DNA from: a phage
Sequence record: PZ540767.1
Reading direction: 5' to 3' (one strand)
Length of the DNA stretch: 64,000 bases
Shown: one piece after another, positions 821-63,871 of the stretch
Position numbering within the stretch: position 1 is the stretch's first letter
Layout: the number at the start of each line of letters is the position of its first letter
Program-made: the position numbers and the translations under genes
Notes under the pieces: generated by a model
What the model was told of the DNA's origin: nothing
Database searches by the model: none
The model's input: the letters and a program-made list of their open reading frames with translations, nothing else

Positions 821-2050
821 ATGGCCGATATCACTATTGATCAAGTAGTAGCTAAAGATCTTCACCTTGAGGATCTGACTACTATTGACCTTCAGGGATC
901 TGGCGTGTGGGATAAGATGCTGCGTAATATGCGTGTTCAACTCAACGATCAGTTTGAGAAGAATCGCATCACTGGCCCTACTTATGGGCAAGTATACGCA
1001 GCTACTTATGAGTCTACTCTTCAAGCTGCTATCACTTTACTTCTGGCTAAAGAACGTCAGGCATTAGAGATTAAGCAGCTTGAATTGCAGAACCAACTCA
1101 CTCAAGCTCAGATTGATCAAATCCATGACCAGATGCAGAAGACGCCTTATGAGATCGAACAGATTAAGGCACAGACAGAGAATATCAAAACTGAGACTGC
1201 ACAGACGCAGTACAATATTGATCATATTCTCCCACTTCAGGCTACTGGTTTAGAACTTGAAAACCAGACTCGTGAGTATAATCTCAACACTGTACTGCCT
1301 ACTCAGGTAGCTCAGACCGAAGCTCAGACTTCACTGACTAAATCTCAGGAAGAACAGATCCGTGCTGAGATGCAGAAAGTACCATATGAGATTGAAGTAC
1401 TTCAGTCCCAGGTGGATGAGTCTAAAATCAAGGTTCTGCAAGAGCAATATAACCTCGATAACCTCATGCCTGCTCAGCTGGGTCAAATCAATGCTCAGAC
1501 TGCTGGTGTGGTTAAAGAGACTGAACTTAAGGACTATCAACTGGTTAATCTGTACCCAGCACAGCTTGCAGGTACATTGGCCCAGACTGAGAATGTCCAA
1601 CAAGATACTGCTCTCAAAGAGTATCAGGTACAGTTCCTCTACCCTGCTCAATTAGCTCAGGCTAATAAGCAGCTTGAGTTAACTGAAGCTCAGATTGCTG
1701 TACAAAATAAGCAACTTGATCTACTTCAGGAACAGGTTAACCAGGCTAAAGCTCAGACTGATTACTATGCTCAGAAGGTTGTTACTGAGAAAGCTCAGAC
1801 TGATGCTACAGTGATTGGGGATGGGTCAGTAATTAATACCCAGGTTCAGCTGATGAATGCGCAGAAGGATGGGTATAAGCGTAATGCTGAACAGCAAGCT
1901 GCTCAGATTATGTCTAATACCTGGAATGTCCGTCGTCAAACTGATGAGGATACTTCTGCAAACAGTACCAACTTACTGGATGATGCTACTGTGGGTAAAA
2001 CCATTCAGACCTTGCTGTCTGGTGTAGGCGTAAATGTTAGCCCGTCCTAA
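821..2050 (+). CDS. Repeat-rich coiled-coil virion protein (409 aa)
   Basis: Seven or more tandem ~25-aa repeats of type Y(N/Q)L(D/N)xL(Y/M)PAQLAQT...; Q/E/A-rich. Confidence 0.65.
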   Translation: MADITIDQVVAKDLHLEDLTTIDLQGSGVWDKMLRNMRVQLNDQFEKNRITGPTYGQVYAATYESTLQAAITLLLAKERQALEIKQLELQNQLTQAQIDQIHDQMQKTPYEIEQIKAQTENIKTETAQTQYNIDHILPLQATGLELENQTREYNLNTVLPTQVAQTEAQTSLTKSQEEQIRAEMQKVPYEIEVLQSQVDESKIKVLQEQYNLDNLMPAQLGQINAQTAGVVKETELKDYQLVNLYPAQLAGTLAQTENVQQDTALKEYQVQFLYPAQLAQANKQLELTEAQIAVQNKQLDLLQEQVNQAKAQTDYYAQKVVTEKAQTDATVIGDGSVINTQVQLMNAQKDGYKRNAEQQAAQIMSNTWNVRRQTDEDTSANSTNLLDDATVGKTIQTLLSGVGVNVSPS

Positions 2051-2069
2051 TCGACTGGTATACTATATA

Positions 2070-2093
2070 GGGAGCCTTGTGCTCCCTTTTTTA
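2070..2093 (+). terminator. Intrinsic terminator/attenuator
   Basis: gggagc-cttgt-gctccc hairpin followed by TTTTTT; precedes RBS gaggt and ATG 2107. Confidence 0.6.
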
Positions 2094-2106
2094 TTATGAG
2101 GTCACC

Positions 2107-4854
2107 ATGGGACTCTTTAGCGGAAAGAAGAAAACGTACCGAGACTTTAGCTACTCTCGCCTAATTGAAGATGATTACCTGCCTGATGTTATGGGTCAGG
2201 CAGTTACTACGTATGTGCTGGATAAAGATAATACCAAATCACTTACTGATCTGATGCTGGAATATGGGTGGTCAGCTAACAATGTTAAGTGGGATGCTGC
2301 ATATCGCTGGGCCAAAAAAGGTAAGTATTTTTATGGCCTCCCTACTACCACTACTGTTACTGCTACTGACTTCACTGGTTCAGAGTCCTTAGAAGATGTT
2401 CTGCAATCACTCACAGGTCGTACAGATCTTACCTATGTATATAGTAAGTTTGTGCCTGGGAATTTCAGGCATGGTATGTGGCAGCAACTGATCTCAACTC
2501 AAAATTATAATGCCACTACTAATATCCTGGGATCTCTGACTTCATCTTTGGGCACTACGTGCTGGCTTCATAATGCTACTAACTATTTAACCAGTGAAAC
2601 CAGGGAAGCTGTAGAAGACACCATGCTGGAGCATTGGGGCTTGTCACCTAAGAGTGGAGCTACCAATATTCGAAGCCAGGATTTGAATGCTGCTGATACT
2701 CCTGATGGGGTTAGTGCCACTGGTTCCAATTATGTCCGTGTGGAGTATGCGTGTAGCTTTGCTGGGGTAGAACGAATTAAGACCGTGGAAACCACTAAGG
2801 TAACCACTACAATTAAAACCCCAGATCCCAATGAGGAAGGTAGCTACACAGAAGAGACTTCATCTACTTCTTCAGATACCACTACTAACACGACTAACTG
2901 GAATGGGGTAACTCTACCTAATAACGTGATCAGTGCAGTGGATGTAGGTACAGGTACTTCAGAGGTTACTGAAAGTGATCCTGTCGATACGCAAACTACA
3001 ACTGATGAAACTACTGGGGTAATTACAGAAGTCGTTACAGAGGTCACCAGAGTTATCACAACAAACACTGTTTCGATCAATGTTATTGCTTACTTCAATA
3101 TGTCGTTTGGGATCTATGACTACAACCCTGATTCTGAAACCATTGACACTACCACTGTGTTGGATGACCGAGATTCTGGGGATTATGATCCTACTGCTCC
3201 TCTGGTTCCAAGTGGGGAAGATACCGATGATTCCCCAGATTACTTCATGGTGTGTTATGAATATACCTCAGGGGGTACTCTCCATATTGGTTACTTTACC
3301 TATCAATATGGGTCTGGGAATTATCCTGCATTGGATGGGATCACAGGTACTGAGGTTGCCGACTTCGGACAACACTTCCCTCGTATGTATTTCCGTCTGG
3401 ATGGTAAACGCCTCATTTCAGATGAGTACTCACAAACTGAAGGCTATAAGACCAGTAAAAAGTTAGGTAATAAGCTGGACTTAGGTTGGTTAGATGTAGG
3501 AGAAGAAATTTATAATAGCTTGAGTTCTTTGGGCAAAATCAGAGATGTAATGATGATTCTTATGGTTCCTGCCAATACTGAAAATGCTATTGAACAGGAA
3601 TATCTCTATAACTATTTTCATACCCTCTGTATGTTACGTCCCCAGTACACTGAAAAAAACTGGACAATCTACTCAACTGAGTCTTCACAATCTGGTTCAG
3701 CTACAGTACCCCCATCAGATCTGGATACTTTTGATATGCGTTTAGGGGCTTTCATGGAGTCCTCTGACACATTTATTGCAACATCAAACCAGATGGACTG
3801 CCTGGGGTATGCTCGTATCACAGGCTCAATAGGTAACATTGGTGCCGTGGCTTCAGGGAGGGGTACAGGTAAGCTTCCCTTTAGATATGAATACAGACAG
3901 GATAATCAGCTTAAATACCGTTATGGTGTGAAAGATGTAGATTATCATTACTACAGAGTTCAGGTATCCAGCACTCAGTATGATGAAGTCAGGGTGTATA
4001 ACCTAAGCCACCAGGTTCGTGTAGGCGGTAAACAGGTTAACCGGAGTGGTTCCAGTGATGAACTCATGGTGCCTTTGGATCATGCTTTCAGAAAGCTGTT
4101 TAGTACTCATGAAAGAGAAACATTATATGCAAGGGCTGCTCAGATTTTAATCTGCACTGAGTATACAGTTAAGACTAAGTGGTATCAGACTAGCATTTTC
4201 AAGGCAATTACCGTTGTAATAGCTGTAGCTGTTTCTTGGTGGACTGGGGGAGCTTCTTTATCCATGATTAGTGTGTTAACTGCTGTAGCAACAACGGCAG
4301 CAACAATGATAGCTTTCTCACTATTGAGTAAGTATGTGTTCAGTAAACTGGGAAGTTGGGCTTCTATTCTGGCTACTGTAGTTGCTGTGGTCGCTGCTGT
4401 TTATGGGGGATATCTTGCTTATACAGGAACTACAGGCCCATATAGTTTAACTGCCCAAAATCTTATGCAGGCATCCAATGTTGCATTTAAAACTGCTGAT
4501 GCTTCCCTAAAAGGACAGCAAATAGCTATGCAGCAAAAGTTTGGATCTCTTCAGAAAGAGTTAGAAGAAAAGCAGGAAGTACTACAGCAAGCTCAAGATG
4601 AGTTAAACCAGGGTTCTAATACTATTTCTGACTGGATATTCCTACAGGCTACAAATGGCTATGTTAACTTAGGTGAAACACCTGATCAGATGATAACCCG
4701 TACTTTGAATACAAATATTGGAACACTGGCTTTACAGCTACCTGACGTATACCTAAGTCAGGCATTGTCTTTACCTTCACCTGTAGAGATCATGCAGTTT
4801 ATGCAACAAAAACTGTATACTGTTCCAGATGACGAACTCAATCCACTTACATGA
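2107..4854 (+). CDS. Large virion protein, Thr-rich with C-terminal transmembrane helices (putative ejection/internal protein)
   Basis: Track ORF 2077-4854 begins with TTG; first ATG at 2107 follows RBS gaggt; Thr-rich low-complexity region; two or more hydrophobic helices near C-terminus followed by coiled coil. Confidence 0.6.
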   Translation: MGLFSGKKKTYRDFSYSRLIEDDYLPDVMGQAVTTYVLDKDNTKSLTDLMLEYGWSANNVKWDAAYRWAKKGKYFYGLPTTTTVTATDFTGSESLEDVLQSLTGRTDLTYVYSKFVPGNFRHGMWQQLISTQNYNATTNILGSLTSSLGTTCWLHNATNYLTSETREAVEDTMLEHWGLSPKSGATNIRSQDLNAADTPDGVSATGSNYVRVEYACSFAGVERIKTVETTKVTTTIKTPDPNEEGSYTEETSSTSSDTTTNTTNWNGVTLPNNVISAVDVGTGTSEVTESDPVDTQTTTDETTGVITEVVTEVTRVITTNTVSINVIAYFNMSFGIYDYNPDSETIDTTTVLDDRDSGDYDPTAPLVPSGEDTDDSPDYFMVCYEYTSGGTLHIGYFTYQYGSGNYPALDGITGTEVADFGQHFPRMYFRLDGKRLISDEYSQTEGYKTSKKLGNKLDLGWLDVGEEIYNSLSSLGKIRDVMMILMVPANTENAIEQEYLYNYFHTLCMLRPQYTEKNWTIYSTESSQSGSATVPPSDLDTFDMRLGAFMESSDTFIATSNQMDCLGYARITGSIGNIGAVASGRGTGKLPFRYEYRQDNQLKYRYGVKDVDYHYYRVQVSSTQYDEVRVYNLSHQVRVGGKQVNRSGSSDELMVPLDHAFRKLFSTHERETLYARAAQILICTEYTVKTKWYQTSIFKAITVVIAVAVSWWTGGASLSMISVLTAVATTAATMIAFSLLSKYVFSKLGSWASILATVVAVVAAVYGGYLAYTGTTGPYSLTAQNLMQASNVAFKTADASLKGQQIAMQQKFGSLQKELEEKQEVLQQAQDELNQGSNTISDWIFLQATNGYVNLGETPDQMITRTLNTNIGTLALQLPDVYLSQALSLPSPVEIMQFMQQKLYTVPDDELNPLT

Positions 4855-17270: not shown

Positions 17271-17975
17271 TTAGTCGAAGTTAGCAAATGGGTCGTCTTC
17301 AGTATCTGCTGGTTTAGCAAAGCCAGCCTCACTGGTTTCAACTACTTTGGTTACCGGAGTATCTGCCTGAGCAAACAGCTCGTCACCTTCAGATGAAGCC
17401 AGCCCAGCGTCTGCGAATGGATCGACTTCTTCTGCTACAGCAGCATCTTTGGCTTCTGGCAGCAGTTCATTTTCAGCACGCAGGTTTGCACCTTCGTCAA
17501 TGTCGAATGGGGCAGCATTGTCTGCATCACTGGTTTCAGCAAAGAGATCTTCTTCACTTTCAGTTTGAGTTTCTGCTTCAGCTTTTACTTCAGCCTGTGC
17601 TGCGGCTTCTTCGGCAGCTTTATCAGCTTCGATTTCAGCTTTAGTACGACGTTTACGACGCTTAGGCTTATCGTCACCAGGTTCGTTACTGGTTTCCTCA
17701 GCTGAATCTTCTTCAGCCTCTTCCTCTTCCACTACTGGAGGCTCTGCGAAGAGTTGTTTAGCAACTTCAGACACAGAACCAGAACTAAGAGGGCCAGTTA
17801 AATCAGCAACAGATTTCAGGCGGAAGTTATCTTCGCCTACAGCTACAGCTGCCACGATCTGACCATCCAGAATACCTACTGTAACATCAGCCCCTTTAGC
17901 TGTAGGTACGAGACTGGAAAACGCATGTTTGGTCACCAGTTCGATCAGATCTTCAGTAGAAAGCAAAATACGCAT
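17271..17975 (-). CDS. Highly acidic protein with repeated D-P-F motifs (234 aa)
   Basis: ATG with aagga RBS; Glu/Asp-rich, KPKRRKRR basic patch; internal 'EEVDPFADAG' and C-terminal 'EDDPFANFD'. Confidence 0.6.
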   Translation of the reverse strand: MRILLSTEDLIELVTKHAFSSLVPTAKGADVTVGILDGQIVAAVAVGEDNFRLKSVADLTGPLSSGSVSEVAKQLFAEPPVVEEEEAEEDSAEETSNEPGDDKPKRRKRRTKAEIEADKAAEEAAAQAEVKAEAETQTESEEDLFAETSDADNAAPFDIDEGANLRAENELLPEAKDAAVAEEVDPFADAGLASSEGDELFAQADTPVTKVVETSEAGFAKPADTEDDPFANFD

Positions 17976-54157: not shown

Positions 54158-54412
54158 AGGAGCCTCTTTAGGATATAGGTTAAGACTGTCTTAAACCCCG
54201 TTAGCCTATAGGTTACTTTAGTCAAAATGGGGATTTTTGGTAAATTTAGAATATAGGTTGAAAGCGTACTAGTAGTACTAAGAAGTACTACCAGAACACT
54301 CTGAACTACTAAAAATGAGGGGAGACTAGCTCCCCTGCCAAAGGCATAGATAAGAATTAAGTGATGGTAATGAGTCGAGCGACTCACAGAAGTGACCGGA
54401 GGTCACAAAGGC

Positions 54413-54697: not shown

Positions 54698-54748
54698 AAG
54701 ATCCTCTTTACCGTTGATGGAAACACTCGCAAAGATGCCCGGAGGGCA

Positions 54749-55156
54749 TCAACGCTTAGTATTATCGCTATATATTTTATTGAAGAAGTTAAAAGCATCA
54801 GCGATATCAGATGTACTTTTAGGTTCCTGAATAGACCGATCATAGATAAATTGTTTAGGGTTGTTTATTTCCTGTCTTCTGAGCACTTCCTCTAGCATCT
54901 TACGTTGAAAATCTTTCATAGAGTTGTACACAGGTTGCTCCTCATTGCCTGGTTTCCAGTAGATCCAGCCTAATGGGGCAGACTCTAAGTCCATTTCAAT
55001 TCCTGGGATGGAATTTTTATGAATGACTTCAAATTGCCCTTCTACTGCTGCTATGACAGTAACTGGTTTCAGCTCCAGTTCTTGTATGCCTATGGCATTA
55101 GCTGTTTTGATTCTCTTAACAGTGCCCCTTGGCACCATGTATTTTATTGTGTCCAT
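54749..55156 (-). CDS. Paralogue 3 of 'KxIKTxxAIG' family (135 aa)
   Basis: N-terminal 'GTVKRIKTANAIGIQELELKP'; first ATG 55156. Confidence 0.5.
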   Translation of the reverse strand: MDTIKYMVPRGTVKRIKTANAIGIQELELKPVTVIAAVEGQFEVIHKNSIPGIEMDLESAPLGWIYWKPGNEEQPVYNSMKDFQRKMLEEVLRRQEINNPKQFIYDRSIQEPKSTSDIADAFNFFNKIYSDNTKR

Positions 55157-55649: not shown

Positions 55650-56924
55650 TTAGCTTAATGCATAGTTGGAACCACGGATTTTATCTCCGAGGTTGTTAGA
55701 CAGTTTGGTATATACCCCATCAGTGCTTCCATACAGCTGGTTCATCAGGGATTGCAGAATGGTGCTATCAGCGAATTCTGCCAGCATCTCTTTGTACCAG
55801 TACCGTACTTCATTACAGTTGTTTGGATGGGAACCAAAGGCATCGTGAACAGTAGCCACAGGGAATGGTTTGTAGGTCAGCATGAAGTTAACTTTACGCA
55901 TTACATCACGAGCTAAGTCGATAGGTAACTGCATGTAGTTGCTCCAGTTGATATCGTTGAGAATAACCATAGAAGACTGCTTATTCTCATTCCACAGACG
56001 GATACGACGTACCATATCACCAGTAGCTTCTTCAGCCTGCATACCCATGCTATTAGCCAGCAGACGTGCTTCCAGCATCTTCTGCACCTCTGCTACCAGT
56101 TCTGGATCGTAGTTGCACAGACGCTCCAGCTCACGCAGCAGATAGGCATCACAGCAGTGAATGGTATTGGCTACGTTAGCTCGGCCTTTCTCTGTACCCC
56201 GGTTCTCTTTGTATTCCATGGTGAAAGTAGCGTGATCAAGCTCATCTACTTCAATTCTGGTTTCCAGAGTTTCCATGACTTTCATCTTAGCGATGAAGCC
56301 ATCAGGCAGCTCCAGAACGTGTTCCAGAGCATACGGACGCCAGGAACCCAGGAGTTCATCCATGAGGTTGAACGCACCAGGAGCGATGATGTGGGCTGCT
56401 TCGTAGAAGTAGTCCAGCATCTCGCCCTCACCGAATACCTTCTTAGGCACAGCCTTAGAACCGTAACCAGAGGTCATTACAGCTTGTTTGATATGGCTAC
56501 GAGGTACTTGGATACTATCCAGACCTTTACGCTTCAGAACGCCATTCATGGCGTCTGTAGTGTTGCTGTAGGCATCCATACGCTTCTCTGGGTCAATACA
56601 ACCAGTGTTGTATGCACCTCTCTCACAGCCTGTGAGGGCACTCATAATCTGAATTCCAGAGCAGCAACCATCCCAGTAGGTGATGTTGCCTACAGCTTCC
56701 CCACGCTGTACACGACGTAAAGTCATAACAGCTTTGTGGTACAGCTCAGGGGTTTCAGCATCTTGAACCTTAGATTCCAGATCCTTGATGTTGTCGTATA
56801 CCCACTGAATACGTTCTTCGAACAGTTTCTTGTCCAGACCGTAATAGTTGGCTACGTCGATGCACATGTATTCCCAACCAGACATATATTTGAAGTTTGG
56901 GCCATAAGCGGTGTTGATTACCAT
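55650..56924 (-). CDS. Phage RNA polymerase II, large (catalytic) subunit; T7-like single-subunit RNAP C-terminal half
   Basis: 'DGCCSGIQIMSALTG' (T7 RNAP motif A-like DGSCSGIQ) and 'VHDAFGSHP' (motif C-like HDSFG). Confidence 0.85.
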   Translation of the reverse strand: MVINTAYGPNFKYMSGWEYMCIDVANYYGLDKKLFEERIQWVYDNIKDLESKVQDAETPELYHKAVMTLRRVQRGEAVGNITYWDGCCSGIQIMSALTGCERGAYNTGCIDPEKRMDAYSNTTDAMNGVLKRKGLDSIQVPRSHIKQAVMTSGYGSKAVPKKVFGEGEMLDYFYEAAHIIAPGAFNLMDELLGSWRPYALEHVLELPDGFIAKMKVMETLETRIEVDELDHATFTMEYKENRGTEKGRANVANTIHCCDAYLLRELERLCNYDPELVAEVQKMLEARLLANSMGMQAEEATGDMVRRIRLWNENKQSSMVILNDINWSNYMQLPIDLARDVMRKVNFMLTYKPFPVATVHDAFGSHPNNCNEVRYWYKEMLAEFADSTILQSLMNQLYGSTDGVYTKLSNNLGDKIRGSNYALS

Positions 56925-56941: not shown

Positions 56942-57949
56942 TTAAAGTTTAAATTCATCAGGCACACCAGTTACTTGCTCTTTATTGGCAAAGTTTAAAC
57001 TGGCTTTCTTGAAGGGAGTGCCTTGAAGGTTGATGTGATAACCCTGGGTATACAGACGTCCACGTTTGTCAGGTTTATTGCCAAAGTAGAACTTATTACC
57101 CTGGTTTACCATCAGGCTATAGAAGTAGTACGACTGACGTTTGTAACGCATCCAGTTGTCTTTCTGTTTACGTACCAGATCAGCCTTCTCCCACGGTGTG
57201 AGAGGTTTCTTACGGTGTTTCTGGAGCTTCTCTTCATCGATCTCATTGAGATCAAATGTAGGTTCTTCTTCGTAGTTACAGAGGAATTCTACGTCCAGAG
57301 AGTAAGGCACAGCATTACGGCTGTTGATTACATCCAGACAGATATCCTCATTATGGTGATTGAATGATCCCCCTAGAATAAGGCTATCAGATGAATAAGT
57401 AAGGTAAGGAGTATCCATGTTATGGGTAAGCTTCTTGGGTGGGCAAACCAGTGGTGGTAGATAACACGAACGCTCAATGAATTGAGCCAACTGGTCAGGC
57501 AACCCAATATTGCTAACGATATACAGAGATGCTTTAGGATGAGGCTTGTTAATGTCATATACATCAGTATCCGTAAGGACAGCAACGATTTCAGCCATAG
57601 TCTGAATGCTGTCACGTTTATCATCGAAACCCAGTCTGGAAGCCAGCTGGCCTACTACGTTGACCATTGGAGTAGGTTCAGGGAAATACATAATTCCCAC
57701 GAACACTTCTTTCACAATAGCTTCCAGATCAAGGGATTTGAGGTGGTTAAGGCGTACAGCTTTAGAGTCGTAATACTCACCCTCAAGCCACTGGTTTAAC
57801 AGAGATACACCCTGTTCTACCTTGTCTAACAGGTTGCAATCAGGGTCTTCAAACAGCTCTTTACGGATATAACCATCAATATGTTTCCTGTTGAACTGAC
57901 GTTCATTGATGGCCTGAAGTTCCTCAACTGGTAACCATTTATGCTGCAT
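56942..57949 (-). CDS. Phage RNA polymerase II, small subunit (N-terminal half of split T7-like RNAP)
   Basis: Immediately upstream of catalytic subunit in same orientation; 335 aa; N4 gp15/gp16-like split arrangement. Confidence 0.65.
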   Translation of the reverse strand: MQHKWLPVEELQAINERQFNRKHIDGYIRKELFEDPDCNLLDKVEQGVSLLNQWLEGEYYDSKAVRLNHLKSLDLEAIVKEVFVGIMYFPEPTPMVNVVGQLASRLGFDDKRDSIQTMAEIVAVLTDTDVYDINKPHPKASLYIVSNIGLPDQLAQFIERSCYLPPLVCPPKKLTHNMDTPYLTYSSDSLILGGSFNHHNEDICLDVINSRNAVPYSLDVEFLCNYEEEPTFDLNEIDEEKLQKHRKKPLTPWEKADLVRKQKDNWMRYKRQSYYFYSLMVNQGNKFYFGNKPDKRGRLYTQGYHINLQGTPFKKASLNFANKEQVTGVPDEFKL

Positions 57950-58251
57950 TAGTTAGTTCCTCGTATTACTCGTAATTGCCATTCACAGCCAGGTTCATTG
58001 ATCCTGTTAGCTATTATTCTTGGTTTAGAACTGGCTATTCCTTCAGGGAAGTAACCAGTATTAATCATGTACTCACTGTTGGTTTTATATTTACCCAACA
58101 CCCCTGGAAGCCTGAGTAAAGGTTCCTCAATGCCCAGCATATATTGGGTACGTAGCTGTTTAATCCATGACTCTTCAAGGACGATATAAACATGTCCATC
58201 AAAGCCAGCAGTAATGCTCTTGCCTACAAGGGCTTCCCATGAATCATTCAA
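57949..58251 (-). CDS. Hypothetical early protein (100 aa), TTG start
   Basis: No in-frame ATG near 5' end; gggag RBS 8 nt upstream of TTG. Confidence 0.4.
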   Translation of the reverse strand: MNDSWEALVGKSITAGFDGHVYIVLEESWIKQLRTQYMLGIEEPLLRLPGVLGKYKTNSEYMINTGYFPEGIASSKPRIIANRINEPGCEWQLRVIRGTN

Positions 58252-58594
58252 GATAGAACTCCCATACGTCTTTGTTGATGTACTTGGCAGATACCCAGAT
58301 ACTCTGGTTTATTAGCACATTGGGCATTGGGTATTTAGGTAGCTGCTCACCATTACAGGTGATCATCTTGTTCAGTCTAAATTCCTTTAATCCCAGTGCT
58401 TTACGCATGAGTATCTGCTTAACCAGAGTCTTAGTGATAAGTACACAGAGACTGCTATTACTGCCTTTGCTGGCAATATGGGTAGAGGTATCAGTATCCT
58501 GAAACTCTTTAATACTCCAACGATATCTGGAGCCTCGTCTACGTGATTTAGCTTCATTACCCCAACGATCATTCCAGTTCTTTTCTTTAGCCAT
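58244..58594 (-). CDS. Hypothetical early basic protein (116 aa)
   Basis: ATG after gagga RBS. Confidence 0.45.
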   Translation of the reverse strand: MAKEKNWNDRWGNEAKSRRRGSRYRWSIKEFQDTDTSTHIASKGSNSSLCVLITKTLVKQILMRKALGLKEFRLNKMITCNGEQLPKYPMPNVLINQSIWVSAKYINKDVWEFYLE

Positions 58595-58640
58595 GGTATA
58601 TCCTCAATTAAATAGCCCAGCACTAGGCTGGGCATATGAA

Positions 58641-58931
58641 TTACAGTTCGAAGTTTTCGAGTGCCTTGGCATCACCGAAGGTGACTGACAGACGCTCTCC
58701 CAGAGCCTCTACGCCGTGCTCACGAATGAAGGCCAGTACTGCACCTTCAACCGGGTGATCTTCACGCAGAGCGATGCCACGGCCACCCTGACCCAGGCGA
58801 CGAACCTGACCGTCACGGCCTTTGACGCCGATGTTCAGATAGCCACCAATGTTACGCTCAACAGGAGCAGCAGCATTGTTAGCAGAGGAATTGGAAGTGT
58901 TGTTTGCAGCAGTGTTTTTCTGATAAGCCAT
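58641..58931 (-). CDS. Early protein (96 aa), first gene after a hairpin promoter; possible RNAP II cofactor by position only
   Basis: ATG 58931 (MAYQKN...) after gaggt RBS; Asn/Ala-rich N-terminus, Gly/Arg-rich core. Confidence 0.45.
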   Translation of the reverse strand: MAYQKNTAANNTSNSSANNAAAPVERNIGGYLNIGVKGRDGQVRRLGQGGRGIALREDHPVEGAVLAFIREHGVEALGERLSVTFGDAKALENFEL

Positions 58932-58992
58932 GATAAATACCTCGATAGTTAATATGAAATGAAGAACGAACAGGCAGGATTGCCTTTGCATT

Positions 58993-59011
58993 CATTGCCC
59001 TGTGGGCAATG
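58993..59011 (-). promoter_or_regulatory. Hairpin promoter candidate (N4 vRNAP-type), instance 1
   Basis: + strand gcaTTCATTgccc-TGT-gggcaatg: 8-bp stem, 3-nt loop; ~60 nt upstream of ATG 58931. Confidence 0.5.
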
Positions 59012-59014
59012 TTT

Positions 59015-59275
59015 TTACAGAAGAAAGATGGACGAGATAACATCTTCATAGGCAGCATGTTCTGCCGGATCAGAGATAATGAGAGCCTGATATTCATGAA
59101 GAGTATCAATACAGTCTTCAGTGAGGATTTCAGCTACTACATTGAGTGCTTCAGCCTCACCCACATTTGCACACAAATGGCTTACAGCACGGGTGAATAG
59201 CTTCAAAGCTAACTCATCCATACCACCTTCATAAGCCAGTTGGCATTGTTCCAGAGTAATATTTACATCGATCAT
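59015..59275 (-). CDS. Small strongly acidic early protein (86 aa)
   Basis: ATG; 16 Asp+Glu versus 2 Lys+Arg. Confidence 0.45.
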   Translation of the reverse strand: MIDVNITLEQCQLAYEGGMDELALKLFTRAVSHLCANVGEAEALNVVAEILTEDCIDTLHEYQALIISDPAEHAAYEDVISSIFLL

Positions 59276-59565
59276 GAGAATGAGATCCGTTGTTCAAGGA
59301 TAACTGGGACTCCAATGGCTACTTTAGCCATCAGAGCTTTAATTTCACGCATATCTACTTTGATAGTGAAGTTCTTTTTATAAAAACCATCTAGCGAAGC
59401 TGGGAAGTCTACCACTGCAATACGTGGAAACTTCTCCAGTGCTACATTGAATTTGGTAATAGTGATAGTGGCATTAATGCCAATGTTGAAGTCACTATAA
59501 TAAGATATAGTACCTTCACCCAGCATCTTAGAATGCCAGTTAAATACTTGGTTAGAATTGGTCAT
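59272..59565 (-). CDS. Hypothetical early protein (97 aa)
   Basis: ATG after ggaga RBS. Confidence 0.4.
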   Translation of the reverse strand: MTNSNQVFNWHSKMLGEGTISYYSDFNIGINATITITKFNVALEKFPRIAVVDFPASLDGFYKKNFTIKVDMREIKALMAKVAIGVPVILEQRISFS

Positions 59566-59806
59566 CGTCTAGTTTCTCCAGACACAGATACTGACCTTTG
59601 CTCATAATTGCATAGTCAATACCATTAAGAGTTAGATAGTCTTCAGTCCCCAGATTTCTGCTACCATCACGCATCTTGTTCTGTAGTCTTATGTCCTCTG
59701 GTTTAATACCAATGGCTAGTTTAGTTTGAATAGTTTTAGCTTCAGCTTCATCTACCCTAACCATCAATGAGGGATGAATATCCCCAAATACAGCATAGTA
59801 GCTCAT
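59552..59806 (-). CDS. Hypothetical early protein (84 aa)
   Basis: ATG; acidic. Confidence 0.4.
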   Translation of the reverse strand: MSYYAVFGDIHPSLMVRVDEAEAKTIQTKLAIGIKPEDIRLQNKMRDGSRNLGTEDYLTLNGIDYAIMSKGQYLCLEKLDDDQF

Positions 59807-59939: not shown

Positions 59940-60278
59940 TTATACCTTGGGTAAGTTTTGGATGCTTCCAGCATTACTTGACCAACGCCCACTAACTACG
60001 CCATGGAGCCTCTCTTTAGGTACATACTTCTTAAATTCCCACATACCATTTTTATTAAGGAATACATCAAATCCCATAAACATTTCATCAGCATGACCAC
60101 GATTGGTAGAAGTATGTTTTTGGTTTTTACGTTTAATACGAGAACCATCAATACAGTACCCATCAAGGGTACAGCCAATGGCTAAAGCCATCTTTACTTT
60201 CTTGAGCCATGCATCAGTAACACGGATATGAATACACTTTTGCATAGCAGGTGCATAGACATAGATTATTTTACTCAT
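59940..60278 (-). CDS. Hypothetical early protein (112 aa)
   Basis: ATG; downstream of hairpin promoter instance 2. Confidence 0.45.
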   Translation of the reverse strand: MSKIIYVYAPAMQKCIHIRVTDAWLKKVKMALAIGCTLDGYCIDGSRIKRKNQKHTSTNRGHADEMFMGFDVFLNKNGMWEFKKYVPKERLHGVVSGRWSSNAGSIQNLPKV

Positions 60279-60344: not shown

Positions 60345-60566
60345 TCATTTATTGTCCTGTGGACAATATACCTCCCAATCTGTCCATTTTTGAGCTAGGA
60401 AGCCTTCTACAGTATCTGTGATAGTATGGCCATCAAGAAATCTTACAAGTATTATACTATCCTGGGACAATGTTATATAAGAACCACTATCCCATACTGA
60501 TCTTTTTATCTTAGCCCCTAGTTTCAGCATTAATAATGCTTCTTTAGCAGTCATATAATGTACCAT
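60345..60566 (-). CDS. DUF2829/Tad2-like small protein, copy 1
   Basis: N-terminus 'MTAKEALLMLKLGAKIKRSVW'. Confidence 0.5.
   Translation of the reverse strand: MVHYMTAKEALLMLKLGAKIKRSVWDSGSYITLSQDSIILVRFLDGHTITDTVEGFLAQKWTDWEVYCPQDNK
60350..60368 (-). promoter_or_regulatory. Hairpin promoter candidate, instance 2
   Basis: + strand ataTTCATTtattgtcc-TGT-ggacaata; overlaps 3' end of the preceding small ORF; ~75 nt upstream of ATG 60278. Confidence 0.5.
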
Positions 60567-60742
60567 TCATGTGATTCATCGAAGAATGAACAGAATTCAG
60601 ATACTTTAATAAGCCCAGGTGGGATAGTGTTATCACAACATACATTATCCCCTTTGATATAATAAAAGAGTTCTGGTTTCATCCAGTCAGCTCTGATCTT
60701 ACATCCGATCTTCATTGCTAACAGGGCTTCCTGAGTCGTCAT
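60551..60742 (-). CDS. DUF2829/Tad2-like small protein, copy 2
   Basis: Start at internal ATG 60742: 'MTTQEALLAMKIGCKIRADW'. Confidence 0.5.
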   Translation of the reverse strand: MTTQEALLAMKIGCKIRADWMKPELFYYIKGDNVCCDNTIPPGLIKVSEFCSFFDESHEWYII

Positions 60743-60938
60743 ATAATTTCCACTCCATATCTGCATATTCTTCAGTAAACTTATTAACAGCACAGGCTAG
60801 ACTGACAAAGTTTAATGGTTTATGTACATAGCAAATACAGTTGCCTTGTAAATCATAATAGTTAGTATAATCAGTCCAGGTAGCAGGAATAACCTTGCAA
60901 CCTATTTTCATTGCAAGCAATGCTTCAGCTGTTGTCAT
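60699..60938 (-). CDS. DUF2829/Tad2-like small protein, copy 3
   Basis: 'MTTAEALLAMKIGCKVIPATW'. Confidence 0.5.
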   Translation of the reverse strand: MTTAEALLAMKIGCKVIPATWTDYTNYYDLQGNCICYVHKPLNFVSLACAVNKFTEEYADMEWKLYDDSGSPVSNEDRM

Positions 60939-61128
60939 TGAATAACTCCCAATTATCTACGTCACCATAACAAGGTATATAGTCTTCAAGTACCAAATGG
61001 GGAGTACCATCTTCATTAACTGTTATATCATCTATAGGATCATATTGTACCCAATCACCTGGTGCCCATGTTTCCCTTCGTACTTTGCATCCTAGTTTAA
61101 GAGCTAGTACTGCTTCTTTGGTTTTCAT
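60925..61128 (-). CDS. DUF2829/Tad2-like small protein, copy 4
   Basis: Start at internal ATG 61128: 'MKTKEAVLALKLGCKVRRETW'. Confidence 0.5.
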   Translation of the reverse strand: MKTKEAVLALKLGCKVRRETWAPGDWVQYDPIDDITVNEDGTPHLVLEDYIPCYGDVDNWELFNDNS

Positions 61129-61174
61129 CCCCTGTCTCCAGTAGACCGATTCACAAGAGTGTTCGGAGAACACG

Positions 61175-61204
61175 TTAATAAACTAAGCCCTCCAGTGAGG
61201 GCTT
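61175..61204 (-). terminator. Hairpin, terminator-like, upstream of the paralogue array
   Basis: aagccctc-cagt-gagggctt 8-bp stem; U/A-rich downstream on - strand. Confidence 0.4.
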
Positions 61205-62782: not shown

Positions 62783-62800
62783 CATTGCCTGTAGGCAATG
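62783..62800 (-). promoter_or_regulatory. Hairpin promoter candidate, instance 3
   Basis: + strand cttctaTTCATTgcc-TGTA-ggcaatg; 7-bp stem. Confidence 0.5.
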
Positions 62801-62930: not shown

Positions 62931-63152
62931 TCAAAACGGAATCTCATCACTGAATCCTGACAGATTCACTGGATAAAACTCATGCCAGTAATAAGACTGA
63001 TCATGAGCCTCAATGGACTCTGCACGGATTTCCTTATACATACCACTGTTACGAACTTCTTGCAGGGCAGCTTCCGCTTCCTCAAGAGTTCCAAAGGTAT
63101 CTACAAAGGTATCTGCATAGAGATCCCCAGGTACAACAGTAAGTAAGAACAT
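62931..63152 (-). CDS. Acidic early protein with SSB-tail-like C-terminus (73 aa)
   Basis: ATG after ggaga RBS; ends '...NLSGFSDEIPF'; first gene after hairpin promoter instance 4. Confidence 0.5.
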   Translation of the reverse strand: MFLLTVVPGDLYADTFVDTFGTLEEAEAALQEVRNSGMYKEIRAESIEAHDQSYYWHEFYPVNLSGFSDEIPF

Positions 63153-63203: not shown

Positions 63204-63220
63204 ATTCTCCTGTGGAGAAT
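63204..63220 (-). promoter_or_regulatory. Hairpin promoter candidate, instance 4
   Basis: + strand cttctaTTCATTctcc-TGT-ggagaat; 7-bp stem, 3-nt loop; ~52 nt upstream of ATG 63152. Confidence 0.5.
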
Positions 63221-63840: not shown

Positions 63841-63871
63841 AGGTAATTAAATAGCTCACCCGAAGGTGAGC
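63841..63871 (-). terminator. C(UUCG)G tetraloop terminator after the partial gene at window end
   Basis: On - strand: gctcacc-uucg-ggtgagc followed by UAUUUAAUU. Confidence 0.5.

What the first reader, a model, noticed from the sequence alone, without database searches (positions are those of the whole stretch)
59015..59275. Strongly acidic 86-aa early protein, candidate DNA mimic
16 acidic versus 2 basic residues in 86 aa, located in the early region. Size and charge are in the range of Ocr-like or ArdA-like DNA mimics or other host-takeover inhibitors.
Basis: inference. Interest (0 to 1): 0.4.

Follow-up and report, generated by a model that had tools for sequence, protein, structure and literature searches.

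The report
Acidic five-helix early phage protein
This is a real, conserved early gene of an N4-like Klebsiella phage that encodes a small, very acidic five-helix protein of unknown function; it is unrelated to the known DNA-mimic families Ocr and ArdA, so it is an ordinary phage orphan gene with a testable but unproven inhibitor role.

Summary
The minus-strand ORF 59015..59275 encodes 86 aa with 16 D/E and 2 K/R (pI 4.05, net -14). It is a real gene: dN/dS is 0.1-0.35 and 76 homologue clusters exist.

The window is an N4-like Klebsiella phage (Schitoviridae, Efbeekayvirus). The gene is the last one of an early unit. It lies directly upstream of a conserved hairpin, probably a virion-RNA-polymerase promoter, and of the Drc-like ssDNA-binding RNAPII cofactor gene.

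The family occurs only in phages, and its 93-aa branch is PHROG 24678 (function unknown). The extreme charge is lineage-specific: most members carry net -1 to -6. An acidic helix-3/helix-4 hairpin is conserved in every member.

The gene is a deletion-plus-frameshift pseudogene in phage Halo_KS_7, so it appears dispensable.

Best guess, at low confidence: a non-enzymatic accessory binder that uses its acidic face to cover a basic, possibly nucleic-acid-binding, surface on a partner. A classical dsDNA anti-restriction mimic is neither shown nor excluded. Interest is modest.

The parts
59015..59275 (-). The 86-aa acidic ORF (CDS including the TAA stop). Predicted five-helix bundle: H4-16, H20-38, H40-50, H53-68, H70-84.
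   Evidence: ORF, composition; homologues; purifying selection; AF2 pLDDT 95.2, pTM 0.85.
59272..59565 (-). Upstream 97-aa ORF. Its TGA overlaps the ATG of the 86-aa ORF (ATGA). It belongs to a set of small early ORFs that share a 'LK..xLGI/V' type motif seen by eye.
   Evidence: Homologues precede the family gene in L010 and L020. In the 93-aa clade the two genes are separated by a gap of 80-105 nt, which in SABI and L016 holds a hairpin, so the coupling is not conserved.
58993..59011 (-). Hairpin CATTGCCC-ACA-GGGCAATG (8-bp stem, 3-nt loop) starting 4 nt after the stop codon, with a G 13 nt downstream of the loop centre. Probable virion-RNAP early promoter for the Drc-like gene.
   Evidence: Relatives keep a hairpin here despite different stem sequences, and I read a G at +13 in all of them. 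The architecture matches LUZ7 early promoters, which have a TSS G 13-14 nt from the hairpin centre and tandem promoters driving Drc (PMC9163698). The hairpin is retained in Halo_KS_7 although the ORF is deleted.
58972..58985 (-). Second small hairpin AGGCA-ATCC-TGCCT, in tandem with the first. A small hairpin also occurs at this place in relatives.
58641..58931 (-). Downstream neighbour: Drc-like ssDNA-binding RNAPII cofactor. It is 96 aa from ATG 58931, which has a GAGG Shine-Dalgarno. The 116-aa ORF in the mechanical list is an upstream extension.
   Evidence: PHROG 6271 at E 2.2e-9. GADU21 annotates it as 'ssDNA binding RNA polymerase cofactor'. A profile built from eight relatives hits LUZ7 gp14 (Drc) at E 1.9e-7 in a 17-sequence set, with Drc Y23 and R37 aligned by my residue count (PMC7145618).
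60350..60368 (-). Same-class hairpin TATTGTCC-ACA-GGACAATA with G at +13. Probable early promoter of the unit 112 aa - 42 aa - 84 aa - 97 aa - 86 aa.
   Evidence: Inference by analogy.

Best explanation
Shown:
- The ORF is a genuine early gene of an N4-like Klebsiella phage.
- Its product is predicted to fold into a compact five-helix, loosely TPR-like bundle.
- It is a divergent member of a phage-only family of 85-94-aa proteins. The family's 93-aa branch is PHROG 24678, of unknown function.
- In every genome examined the gene sits immediately upstream of the hairpin element and gene of the Drc-like RNAPII cofactor.
- Conserved across the family are the hydrophobic core, helices 1-2 (G18, L24, F27, R/K29) and an acidic helix-3/helix-4 hairpin with 4-9 D/E against 0-3 K/R.
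- The Klebsiella-phage lineage has also lost nearly all basic residues from helices 1 and 5. That gives net -11 to -15.

Inferred, as the most likely mechanism:
- The protein has no catalytic features. It probably acts stoichiometrically as a binder.
- Its conserved acidic H3-H4 face would cover a basic, probably nucleic-acid-binding, surface on a partner protein.
- Its excess of apolar residues (51%, GRAVY +0.42) suggests it either self-associates or buries a hydrophobic interface on that partner.
- The gene is inactivated in one isolated phage, and its central region evolves fast. So the partner is more likely a host factor (takeover or counter-defence) than an essential part of the phage's own transcription machinery.
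- It would work 'like' an electrostatic competitor or mimic. It is not a member of the Ocr or ArdA families.
For: - Real gene under purifying selection. dN/dS is 0.1-0.35. For codons 1-30, dN is 0.01-0.04 against dS 0.23-0.39.
- Confident fold with the 63-sequence alignment: pLDDT 95.2, pTM 0.85.
- The acidic H3-H4 segment is conserved in all 63 aligned members. Total charge ranges from -1 to -15.
- The central codons 31-60 diverge fast (dN 0.15-0.5) yet stay acidic.
- The gene is a pseudogene in Klebsiella phage Halo_KS_7. Codons of about 22-70 are deleted, apparently between the two 'AYE' codon repeats, and the remnant is frameshifted. The flanking 97-aa gene, the hairpin and the Drc-like gene are intact.
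- It shares the early region with a tandem array of Tad2-like (anti-Thoeris-type) genes.
- Net charge per residue (-0.16) equals that of T7 gp5.9 (-0.15), which the T7 record annotates as an inhibitor of RecBCD nuclease.
- The family is phage-only. None was found in 185,579 representative bacterial genomes with the patterns used. All family members on long contigs lie on N4-like contigs of about 75-77 kb.
Against: - No partner has been identified and no experiment exists.
- No model coordinates were available, so the spatial charge pattern could not be compared with DNA.
- Most family members are only mildly acidic. A polyanionic mimic surface is therefore not the conserved essence of the family.
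- The strictly conserved position next to the Drc-like and RNAPII genes fits a role in phage transcription equally well.
- Halo_KS_7 is a 58.7-kb record, against about 76 kb for its relatives. Its value as proof of dispensability is limited.
Confidence: 0.35

Rival explanations
1. It is a modulator or cofactor of the phage's own middle-transcription machinery. The acidic H3-H4 face would bind the basic ssDNA-binding surface of the Drc-like protein, or RNAPII itself. This could tune, chaperone or time Drc/RNAPII loading on middle promoters. It would be a positional analogue of N4 gp1.
For: - The order [family gene]-[hairpin]-[Drc-like gene]-(0-2 small genes)-[RNAPII small]-[RNAPII large] is kept in the window, L010, L011, SABI, MIF8, L016, L018/19 and L020. 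Family proteins in these loci are only 25-45% identical to the window protein.
- N4 has the same layout: gp1 (154-480), the Pe2 hairpin (557-573), then gp2 (586-1071).
- Drc is toxic to the host and is the most abundant early transcript in LUZ7, so a buffering partner is plausible.
- The Drc-like protein carries a basic stretch, VKGRDGQVRRLGQGGRGIALR.
Against: - No sequence similarity to N4 gp1 or to any N4 or LUZ7 early protein.
- LUZ7 has Drc but no relative of this family. The Drc authors propose that Drc may not need an additional DNA-unwinding cofactor.
- The gene is a pseudogene in Halo_KS_7 while the Drc-like and RNAPII genes are intact.
- A promoter-like hairpin separates it from the Drc-like gene, and an HNH endonuclease gene is inserted between the two in L017. 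They are therefore not an obligate co-translated pair.
- Gene order is broadly conserved in this clade anyway.
Confidence: 0.25
2. It is a true double-stranded-DNA mimic that blocks restriction-modification enzymes (type I R-M, or BREX-type systems).
For: - Net -14 in 86 aa with only two basic residues.
- The charge per residue is similar to that of T7 gp5.9.
- It is early and looks accessory.
- It lies near other candidate anti-defence genes (the Tad2-like array).
- Known DNA mimics have unrelated folds (general knowledge), so lack of homology does not exclude the function.
Against: - No Ocr or ArdA profile match, and no match to a mimic structure among the hits shown.
- The acidic fraction is 19%, against 29% in Ocr. 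The sequence is unusually hydrophobic (GRAVY +0.42 against -0.58 and -0.81 for Ocr and gp5.9).
- Most family members carry net -1 to -6, with R/K at positions that are E/D/L in the Klebsiella clade.
- The gene is about 5.4-5.7 kb from the left end rather than first in. The 73-aa acidic ORF at 62931..63152 is better placed for that role.
Confidence: 0.1
3. It has no specific inhibitory role. It would be a dispensable lineage-specific ORFan whose acidity is a by-product of composition, or a small protein with some other role such as a scaffold or membrane-associated factor.
For: - It is a pseudogene in one phage.
- No functional annotation exists anywhere.
- Its hydrophobicity is high.
Against: - Strong purifying selection, with the first 30 residues nearly invariant in the Klebsiella clade.
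- A confident compact fold.
- The family persists down to about 22% identity with a conserved acidic hairpin.
- No transmembrane-length hydrophobic stretch is visible in the sequence.
Confidence: 0.1

Closest known systems
PHROG 24678 (uncharacterised phage protein family; 93-aa proteins of Enterobacter phage SABI, Erwinia phage MIF8 and relatives)
   Same: Homologous. The profile of the window's clade hits the SABI and MIF8 proteins at E 6e-23 and 3e-19 in a small local set. Forty-eight of 63 aligned family members match this PHROG. Size, helix pattern, genomic position and the acidic H3-H4 segment are all shared.
   Different: The window protein does not itself reach the PHROG HMM threshold. 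It is 7 residues shorter at the N-terminus. It has lost the basic residues of helices 1 and 5, giving net -14 against -1 to -6.
T7 Ocr (gp0.3, Pfam PF08684) and ArdA (PF07275), the classical DNA-mimic anti-restriction proteins
   Same: Small, acidic (pI about 4), non-enzymatic and early-expressed. Ocr is also largely helical.
   Different: No profile or fold match. It has 19% D/E and net -0.16 per residue, against 29% and -0.24 in Ocr. It is hydrophobic (GRAVY +0.42 against -0.58). It is not the leftmost gene. Its extreme charge is not conserved in its own family. ArdA is about twice as long and has mixed alpha/beta domains (established knowledge).
T7 gp5.9 (annotated RecBCD nuclease inhibitor; helical DNA mimic by general knowledge)
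   Same: Comparable net charge per residue (-0.15 against -0.16) and small size.
   Different: No homology. gp5.9 has 52 aa, is very hydrophilic (GRAVY -0.81) and has 25% D/E.
N4 gp1 (proposed cofactor for middle-promoter use)
   Same: Same relative position: a small early protein gene immediately upstream of an early hairpin promoter and the ssDNA-binding RNAPII cofactor gene.
   Different: No detectable sequence similarity. N4 gp1 has 108 aa and is near-neutral (pI 6.6). The partner gene here is Drc-type, not gp2-type.
TPR-like helical-repeat peptide-binding modules (PlcR/Rap/ComR TPR domains, Sti1 TPR, T3SS class II chaperones)
   Different: No match to a TPR sequence motif: one member of 63 hits Pfam TPR_2, at E 0.13. 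Scores are in the generic range for small helical proteins.

Membership tests
Ocr (T7 gp0.3, PF08684) | Sequence/profile match to the Ocr family | tested here: not met
   No Pfam hit at E up to 1 for the protein or for any of 63 relatives. No PHROG or NCBIfam hit for the protein.
Ocr (T7 gp0.3, PF08684) | Ocr-type elongated helical fold | tested here: not met
Ocr (T7 gp0.3, PF08684) | Very high acidic density (about 29% D/E, net about -0.24 per residue) on a hydrophilic protein | tested here: not met
   The window protein has 19% D/E, net -0.16 per residue and GRAVY +0.42. T7 Ocr, read from NC_001604, has 29%, -0.24 and -0.58.
Ocr (T7 gp0.3, PF08684) | Carboxylates arrayed to match the phosphate pattern of bent B-DNA; homodimer | not testable with these tools
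   Model coordinates are not exposed and no multimer prediction is available.
Ocr (T7 gp0.3, PF08684) | First gene to enter and be expressed | tested here: not met
   The gene lies about 5.4 kb from the left end in P184. It is the last gene of an internal early unit.
ArdA (PF07275) | Profile match; protein of about 165 aa with three alpha/beta domains | tested here: not met
   No Pfam hit. The protein has 86 aa and is all-helical.
PHROG 24678 extended family | Direct match of the window protein to the PHROG HMM | tested here: not met
   No PHROG at E up to 0.01 for the window protein.
PHROG 24678 extended family | Homology to PHROG members through profile search, with the same length class and genomic position | tested here: met
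   The clade profile hits the SABI and MIF8 proteins at E 6e-23 and 3e-19. The profile search returns 76 clusters. Forty-eight of 63 aligned members match phrog_24678, best E 1e-62. Synteny is conserved.
TPR-like repeat proteins | TPR sequence motif and a significant fold match | tested here: inconclusive
N4 gp1-type middle-transcription cofactor | Sequence similarity to N4 gp1 | tested here: not met
   hmmsearch and phmmer at maximum sensitivity against N4 gp1-gp16 gave no E-value below 0.05 in a 16-sequence set.
N4 gp1-type middle-transcription cofactor | Position immediately upstream of an early hairpin promoter and the SSB-type RNAPII cofactor gene | tested here: met
   N4: gp1 154-480, hairpin 557-573, gp2 586-1071. 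Window: ORF 59275-59015, hairpins 59011-58972, Drc-like gene 58931-58641.
N4 gp1-type middle-transcription cofactor | Required for middle transcription | not testable with these tools
   Only indirect evidence is available. The gene is a pseudogene in Halo_KS_7 while the Drc-like and RNAPII genes are intact. That argues against essentiality.
Drc (LUZ7 gp14) - for the downstream neighbour, context only | Profile match with the key ssDNA-binding residues Y23 and R37 conserved | tested here: met
   PHROG 6271 at E 2.2e-9. A clade profile hits LUZ7 gp14 at E 1.9e-7 in a 17-sequence set. By my residue count, the Y of 'GGYLN' aligns with Y23 and the R of 'RRL' with R37 (residue roles from PMC7145618).

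The most novel reading that the evidence does not exclude
The family would be a previously unrecognised class of small helical 'polyanion' regulators of N4-like phages. One possibility is a nucleic-acid mimic on a new fold that neutralises a host DNA- or RNA-binding defence or housekeeping protein in Enterobacterales. The other is an ssDNA-mimicking partner that gates the toxic, hyper-abundant Drc cofactor and thereby times the early-to-middle transcription switch.
Probability: 0.15. Interest if true: 0.6.

Novelty: new member of a known kind. Interest (0 to 1): 0.3.

Why it matters
If the acidic helix-3/helix-4 face proves to block a host nucleic-acid enzyme or defence system, it would add a new fold to the set of phage protein inhibitors. 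It would also be relevant to therapeutic Klebsiella phages of this genus. If instead it binds Drc or RNAPII, it would supply a missing accessory factor in the poorly understood early-to-middle switch of N4-like phages. As things stand it is one more conserved orphan gene. The practical gains are a confident structural model, a defined conserved surface and a natural knockout (Halo_KS_7), all of which make experiments easy to design.

Tried and rejected
1. Direct family assignment. Pfam, PHROGs and NCBIfam gave nothing for the protein. Weak Pfam hits across the family (RRM_9 and others) were rejected as noise for an all-helical protein.
2. PDB by sequence, using profiles A2 and A5. Only chance hits such as globins at E about 1, or none.
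3. The first AF2 model, from 25 close homologues, was poor (pLDDT 71.8, pTM 0.49). Its Foldseek searches of PDB and BFVD found only its own orthologue, at TM 0.39. That model was discarded in favour of the one from the 63-sequence alignment.
4. An exhaustive profile search of 1.84 billion representatives with the shallow profile found only 4 extra relatives. The word-indexed search with a broader profile was more productive.
5. Homology to the early proteins of N4 (gp1-gp16) and LUZ7 (gp3-gp19): none.
6. Obligate complex with the translationally coupled 97-aa protein: rejected. In the 93-aa clade the two genes are separated by 80-105 nt, with a hairpin in that gap in SABI and L016, and the net charges of the pair do not compensate.
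7. The hairpin after the stop codon as an intrinsic terminator for this operon: rejected. The T-run is on the opposite strand, where there are no genes.
8. Relatives in bacterial genomes: none found.
9. Spatial charge mapping: not possible, because model coordinates are not exposed.

Full report
**1. Observation**

The finding's coordinates hold a minus-strand ORF (ATG 59275, TAA 59015-59017) of 86 codons. The product has 16 D/E, 2 K/R and 3 H. Its pI is 4.05, its charge is about -14 at pH 7, and its GRAVY is +0.42 with 51% apolar residues.

In a crude non-overlapping ORF map of the window it is the second most acidic ORF per residue, at -0.16. The 234-aa ORF at 17271..17975 scores -0.17, and the 73-aa ORF at 62931..63152 scores -0.15.

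The ATG overlaps the TGA of the upstream 97-aa ORF (ATGA). There is no good Shine-Dalgarno sequence, so translational coupling is likely.

**2. What the window is**

The region is 84-94% identical at the DNA level to Klebsiella phages P184, HS106, GADU21, FBKp27 and others. The records that carry a lineage place these phages in Schitoviridae, genus Efbeekayvirus; that is, they are N4-like.

Gene order on the minus strand is as follows:
- several small ORFs;
- the 84-aa ORF;
- the 97-aa ORF;
- the 86-aa ORF;
- a 96-aa protein that GADU21 annotates as 'ssDNA binding RNA polymerase cofactor' (PHROG 6271, E 2e-9);
- two small ORFs;
- the RNAPII small subunit (56942..57949);
- the RNAPII large subunit (55650..56924).

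A profile of the 96-aa protein's relatives hits LUZ7 gp14, also called Drc, at E 1.9e-7 in a 17-sequence set. By my residue count Drc's key residues Y23 and R37 are aligned (PMC7145618). The 86-aa gene lies about 5.4 kb from the left genome end in P184. An 'early region' placement is therefore reasonable.

**3. Is it a gene?**

Yes.
- It is annotated as a 261-nt hypothetical CDS in every related phage.
- Twenty-six 90%-identity clusters, nearly all of exactly 86 aa, share 58-94% identity with no indels.
- Pairwise dN/dS is 0.1-0.35.
- Constraint is uneven. For codons 1-30, dN is 0.01-0.04 against dS 0.23-0.39. For codons 31-60, dN is 0.15-0.5.

**4. The family**

No Pfam, PHROG or NCBIfam model matches the protein. 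An exhaustive profile search of 1.84 billion representatives added four distant relatives.

tblastn with the Drc-like neighbour led to Enterobacter phage SABI and Erwinia phage MIF8. In both, the gene just upstream of the Drc-like gene proved to be a 93-94-aa relative, at profile E 6e-23 and 3e-19.

A profile that included these proteins returned 76 clusters of 85-94 aa. All those on long contigs lie on N4-like contigs of about 75-77 kb. Forty-eight of 63 aligned members match PHROG 24678, which has no known function. The window protein itself does not match it.

No relative was found in 185,579 representative bacterial genomes with the patterns used. N4 and LUZ7 have no homologue.

**5. Structure**

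With 25 close homologues AlphaFold2 gave a poor model, pLDDT 72. With the 63-sequence alignment it gave pLDDT 95.2 and pTM 0.85. The model is a five-helix bundle: H4-16, H20-38, H40-50, H53-68 and H70-84.

- TPR-type helical repeats such as PlcR, Rap, ComR, Sti1, APC subunits and the T3SS chaperone AcrH;
- designed three-helix mini-binders.

No Ocr, ArdA, Gam, DMP19 or other mimic appears among the 60 hits listed. PDB sequence searches found nothing. The fold is a generic, loosely TPR-like protein-interaction scaffold.

**6. Charge across the family**

The extreme charge is lineage-specific:

| Clade | Net charge |
|---|---|
| 86-aa Klebsiella-phage clade | -11 to -15 |
| 85-aa clade | -9 to -11 |
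| 90-aa group | -3 to -9 |
| Dominant 93-aa clade | -1 to -6 |

At positions 9, 13, 16, 20, 53 and 79 the 93-aa clade has R or K where the window protein has E, L, E, D, E and V.

The segment spanning helices 3 and 4 (residues 39-69) is acidic in every member, with 4-9 D/E against 0-3 K/R. The window protein has 8 against 0, and SABI-type proteins have 7 against 1. The acidic columns 41/45 and 54/57/58/61/64/65 follow an i, i+3/i+4 spacing, which places them on one face of each helix.

The family-wide features are therefore the hydrophobic core, helices 1-2 (G18 and L24 invariant; L26 and F27 nearly invariant; R/K at position 29 in 92%) and an acidic H3-H4 hairpin. The Klebsiella lineage has in addition stripped the basic residues from helices 1 and 5.

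For comparison, these values were read from NC_001604:

| Protein | D/E | Net charge per residue | GRAVY |
|---|---|---|---|
| T7 Ocr | 29% | -0.24 | -0.58 |
| T7 gp5.9 | 25% | -0.15 | -0.81 |
| This protein | 19% | -0.16 | +0.42 |

The protein is more apolar than either T7 comparator. That suggests self-association or a hydrophobic interface with a partner. This last point is an inference.

**7. Context and transcription units**

The order [family gene]-[spacer of 83-136 nt]-[Drc-like gene]-(0-2 small genes)-[RNAPII small]-[RNAPII large] holds in the window, L010, L011, SABI, MIF8, L016, L018/19 and L020. In L017 an HNH endonuclease gene is inserted between the family gene and the Drc-like gene.

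The spacer always begins with a hairpin of 6-8 bp stem and 3-nt loop. The stem sequences differ but pairing is kept:

| Locus | Hairpin |
|---|---|
| Window | CATTGCCC-ACA-GGGCAATG |
| L020 | CATTGGCC-ACA-GGCCAATG |
| L018 | AGCCGC-AAG-GCGGCT |
| L011 | AGCAGC-AAA-GCTGCT |
| L016 | AACGGCC-ATA-GGCCGTT |
| SABI | AACGCGC-ATA-GCGCGTT |
| MIF8 | GAATGGCC-ATA-GGCCATTC |

A second small hairpin follows the first. By my count from those sequences, a G lies 13 nt downstream of the first loop centre in every case.

Three more hairpins of the same type lie on the gene strand of the window's early region, at 60350-60368, 62783-62800 and 63204-63220. Each has a CC-ACA-GG apex and a following AATGAAT or AATAGAAG.

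This matches the early-promoter architecture mapped in LUZ7. There the promoters have a stem of at least 4 bp, a 3-nt loop and a TSS G 13-14 nt from the hairpin centre. Two strong tandem early promoters drive Drc (PMC9163698). It also parallels N4, where the Pe2 hairpin (557-573) lies between gp1 and gp2.

I therefore infer two things:
- The 86-aa gene is the last gene of an early unit that starts at the 60350 hairpin.
- The Drc-like gene has its own promoter or promoters immediately after the 86-aa stop codon.

In the 93-aa clade the family gene is separated from the preceding gene by 80-105 nt. In SABI that gap holds a hairpin of the same type, at L014 1984-2000. Coupling to the 97-aa gene is therefore not conserved.

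**8. Dispensability**

Klebsiella phage Halo_KS_7 keeps the 84-aa gene, the 97-aa gene (not annotated there), the hairpin and the Drc-like gene. Of the 86-aa gene only two fragments remain, corresponding to residues 6-21 and 71-86.

The deletion junction falls on the two 'AYE' codon repeats (GCTTATGAAG and GCCTATGAAG). By my reading of the sequence, the remnant is also out of frame with the retained ATG. The gene is thus a natural pseudogene in an isolated phage.

One caveat applies. That record is 58.7 kb, against about 76 kb for its relatives.

**9. Interpretation**

The evidence fits a non-enzymatic binder best. It offers a compact helical scaffold, a conserved acidic face, excess apolar surface and a fast-evolving centre that nevertheless stays acidic.

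An accessory status also fits. The gene is lost in one phage and lies in an early region that also holds a Tad2-like tandem array. One copy of that array passes the Pfam gathering score: 60925..61173, at 26.9 bits against a cut-off of 25.

I therefore favour, at confidence 0.35, an early accessory inhibitor whose acidic H3-H4 face covers a basic, possibly nucleic-acid-binding, surface of a host protein.

The main rival, at 0.25, is a modulator of the phage's own Drc/RNAPII machinery. The invariant position next to those genes and the positional analogy with N4 gp1 support it. The pseudogene, the intervening promoter and the absence of the family from other Drc-encoding phages weaken it.

A classical dsDNA-mimic anti-restriction protein, at 0.1, is neither shown nor excluded. 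Membership in the Ocr or ArdA families is rejected.

**10. Novelty and verdict**

The gene is already present, as 'hypothetical protein', in public Efbeekayvirus genomes. Its distant relatives already form PHROG 24678. The new results here are:
- the link between the Klebsiella clade and that PHROG;
- a confident fold;
- the conserved acidic hairpin, as opposed to the lineage-specific total charge;
- the promoter-flanked position;
- the natural knockout.

This is an ordinary conserved phage orphan gene with a plausible but untested inhibitor role. Interest is 0.3.

Noticed in passing
window 60345..61173 (minus strand): Four tandem, partly overlapping small ORFs (73, 80, 79 and 82 aa) share an N-terminal 'T.EALLAMK.G.K.R' motif. 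Two hit Pfam Tad2-like (Thoeris anti-defence 2, PF11195). 60925..61173 scores E 7e-6 at 26.9 bits, above the gathering score of 25. 60345..60566 scores E 2.6e-4, below it. This may be an anti-Thoeris sponge array in the early region. Halo_KS_7 keeps about two unannotated copies.
   Followed up: partly
window 58993-59011, 60350-60368, 62783-62800, 63204-63220 (gene strand is minus): A family of hairpins with a CC-ACA-GG apex (6-8 bp stems, 3-4 nt loop) is followed by AATGAAT or AATAGAAG, with a G 13-14 nt from the loop centre. Each lies at a gene end, 60-85 nt before the next gene. At the orthologous place in relatives the stem sequences differ but pairing is kept. These are probably virion-RNAP early promoters, like those mapped in LUZ7.
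   Followed up: partly
window 61159-61173, 54734-54750, 54392-54406 (minus strand): A second hairpin class has the apex C-TCC-G. This is the same form as the N4 early promoters Pe2 (N4 557-573) and Pe3 (N4 4546-4562). Similar hairpins occur in L016, L018 and L020. I did not resolve which class the virion RNAP of this genus uses, or what the other class does.
   Followed up: partly
window 57949..58251, 58244..58594, 59272..59565, 59552..59806, 59940..60278; also many ORFs in L014, L015, L016, L018: Many small early ORFs of 84-120 aa share a short motif of the type L(K/R)T(R/K)xLLG(I/M), for example 'IQTKLAIGIKP', 'MAKVAIGVPV', 'LRTQYMLGIEE' and 'VKMALAIGCTL'. This suggests a large paralogous family of early proteins with no database match. 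The motif was seen by eye and was not tested statistically.
   Followed up: no
L013 (Klebsiella phage Halo_KS_7, PV026551) 2034..2420: The 97-aa gene homologue (L013 2034..2324) is intact but not annotated. The 86-aa gene is an internally deleted, frameshifted remnant. The 112-aa gene is truncated to its first 40 codons.
   Followed up: yes
L017 1267..1794: An HNH_3 endonuclease gene (175 aa) is inserted between the family gene and the Drc-like gene in one metagenomic relative. Otherwise that locus carries the same 92-aa family protein and 95-aa Drc-like protein as L016.
   Followed up: no
window 62931..63152 (minus) and 17271..17975 (minus): Two other strongly acidic ORFs. The first has 73 aa with 14 D/E against 3 K/R. 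It lies just downstream of the leftmost ACA-type hairpin and near the genome end, so it is better placed than the finding for an Ocr-like first-in role; it has no Pfam, NCBIfam or PHROG match. The second has 234 aa with net -39 and lies next to the vRNAP gene; it has only weak PHROG hits.
   Followed up: partly
window 58641..58991 (minus): The mechanically listed 116-aa ORF is probably 20 codons too long. The conserved start is ATG 58931 (MAYQK...), which has a GAGG Shine-Dalgarno. Orthologues start there, and the extension would cover the hairpin element.
   Followed up: yes
window 58615-58633, 61185-61204, 63854-63871 (minus strand): GC-rich hairpins are followed by TATTTAATT or AGTTTATTAA at the ends of gene blocks, for example right after the Drc-like stop codon. 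They may combine a terminator with an AT-rich middle-promoter-like motif.
   Followed up: no
public record OY979417 (Klebsiella phage vB_Kpn_K17alpha62): The orthologous early region is annotated there as 'virion RNA polymerase' or 'virion structural protein'. This looks like a mis-annotation.
   Followed up: no
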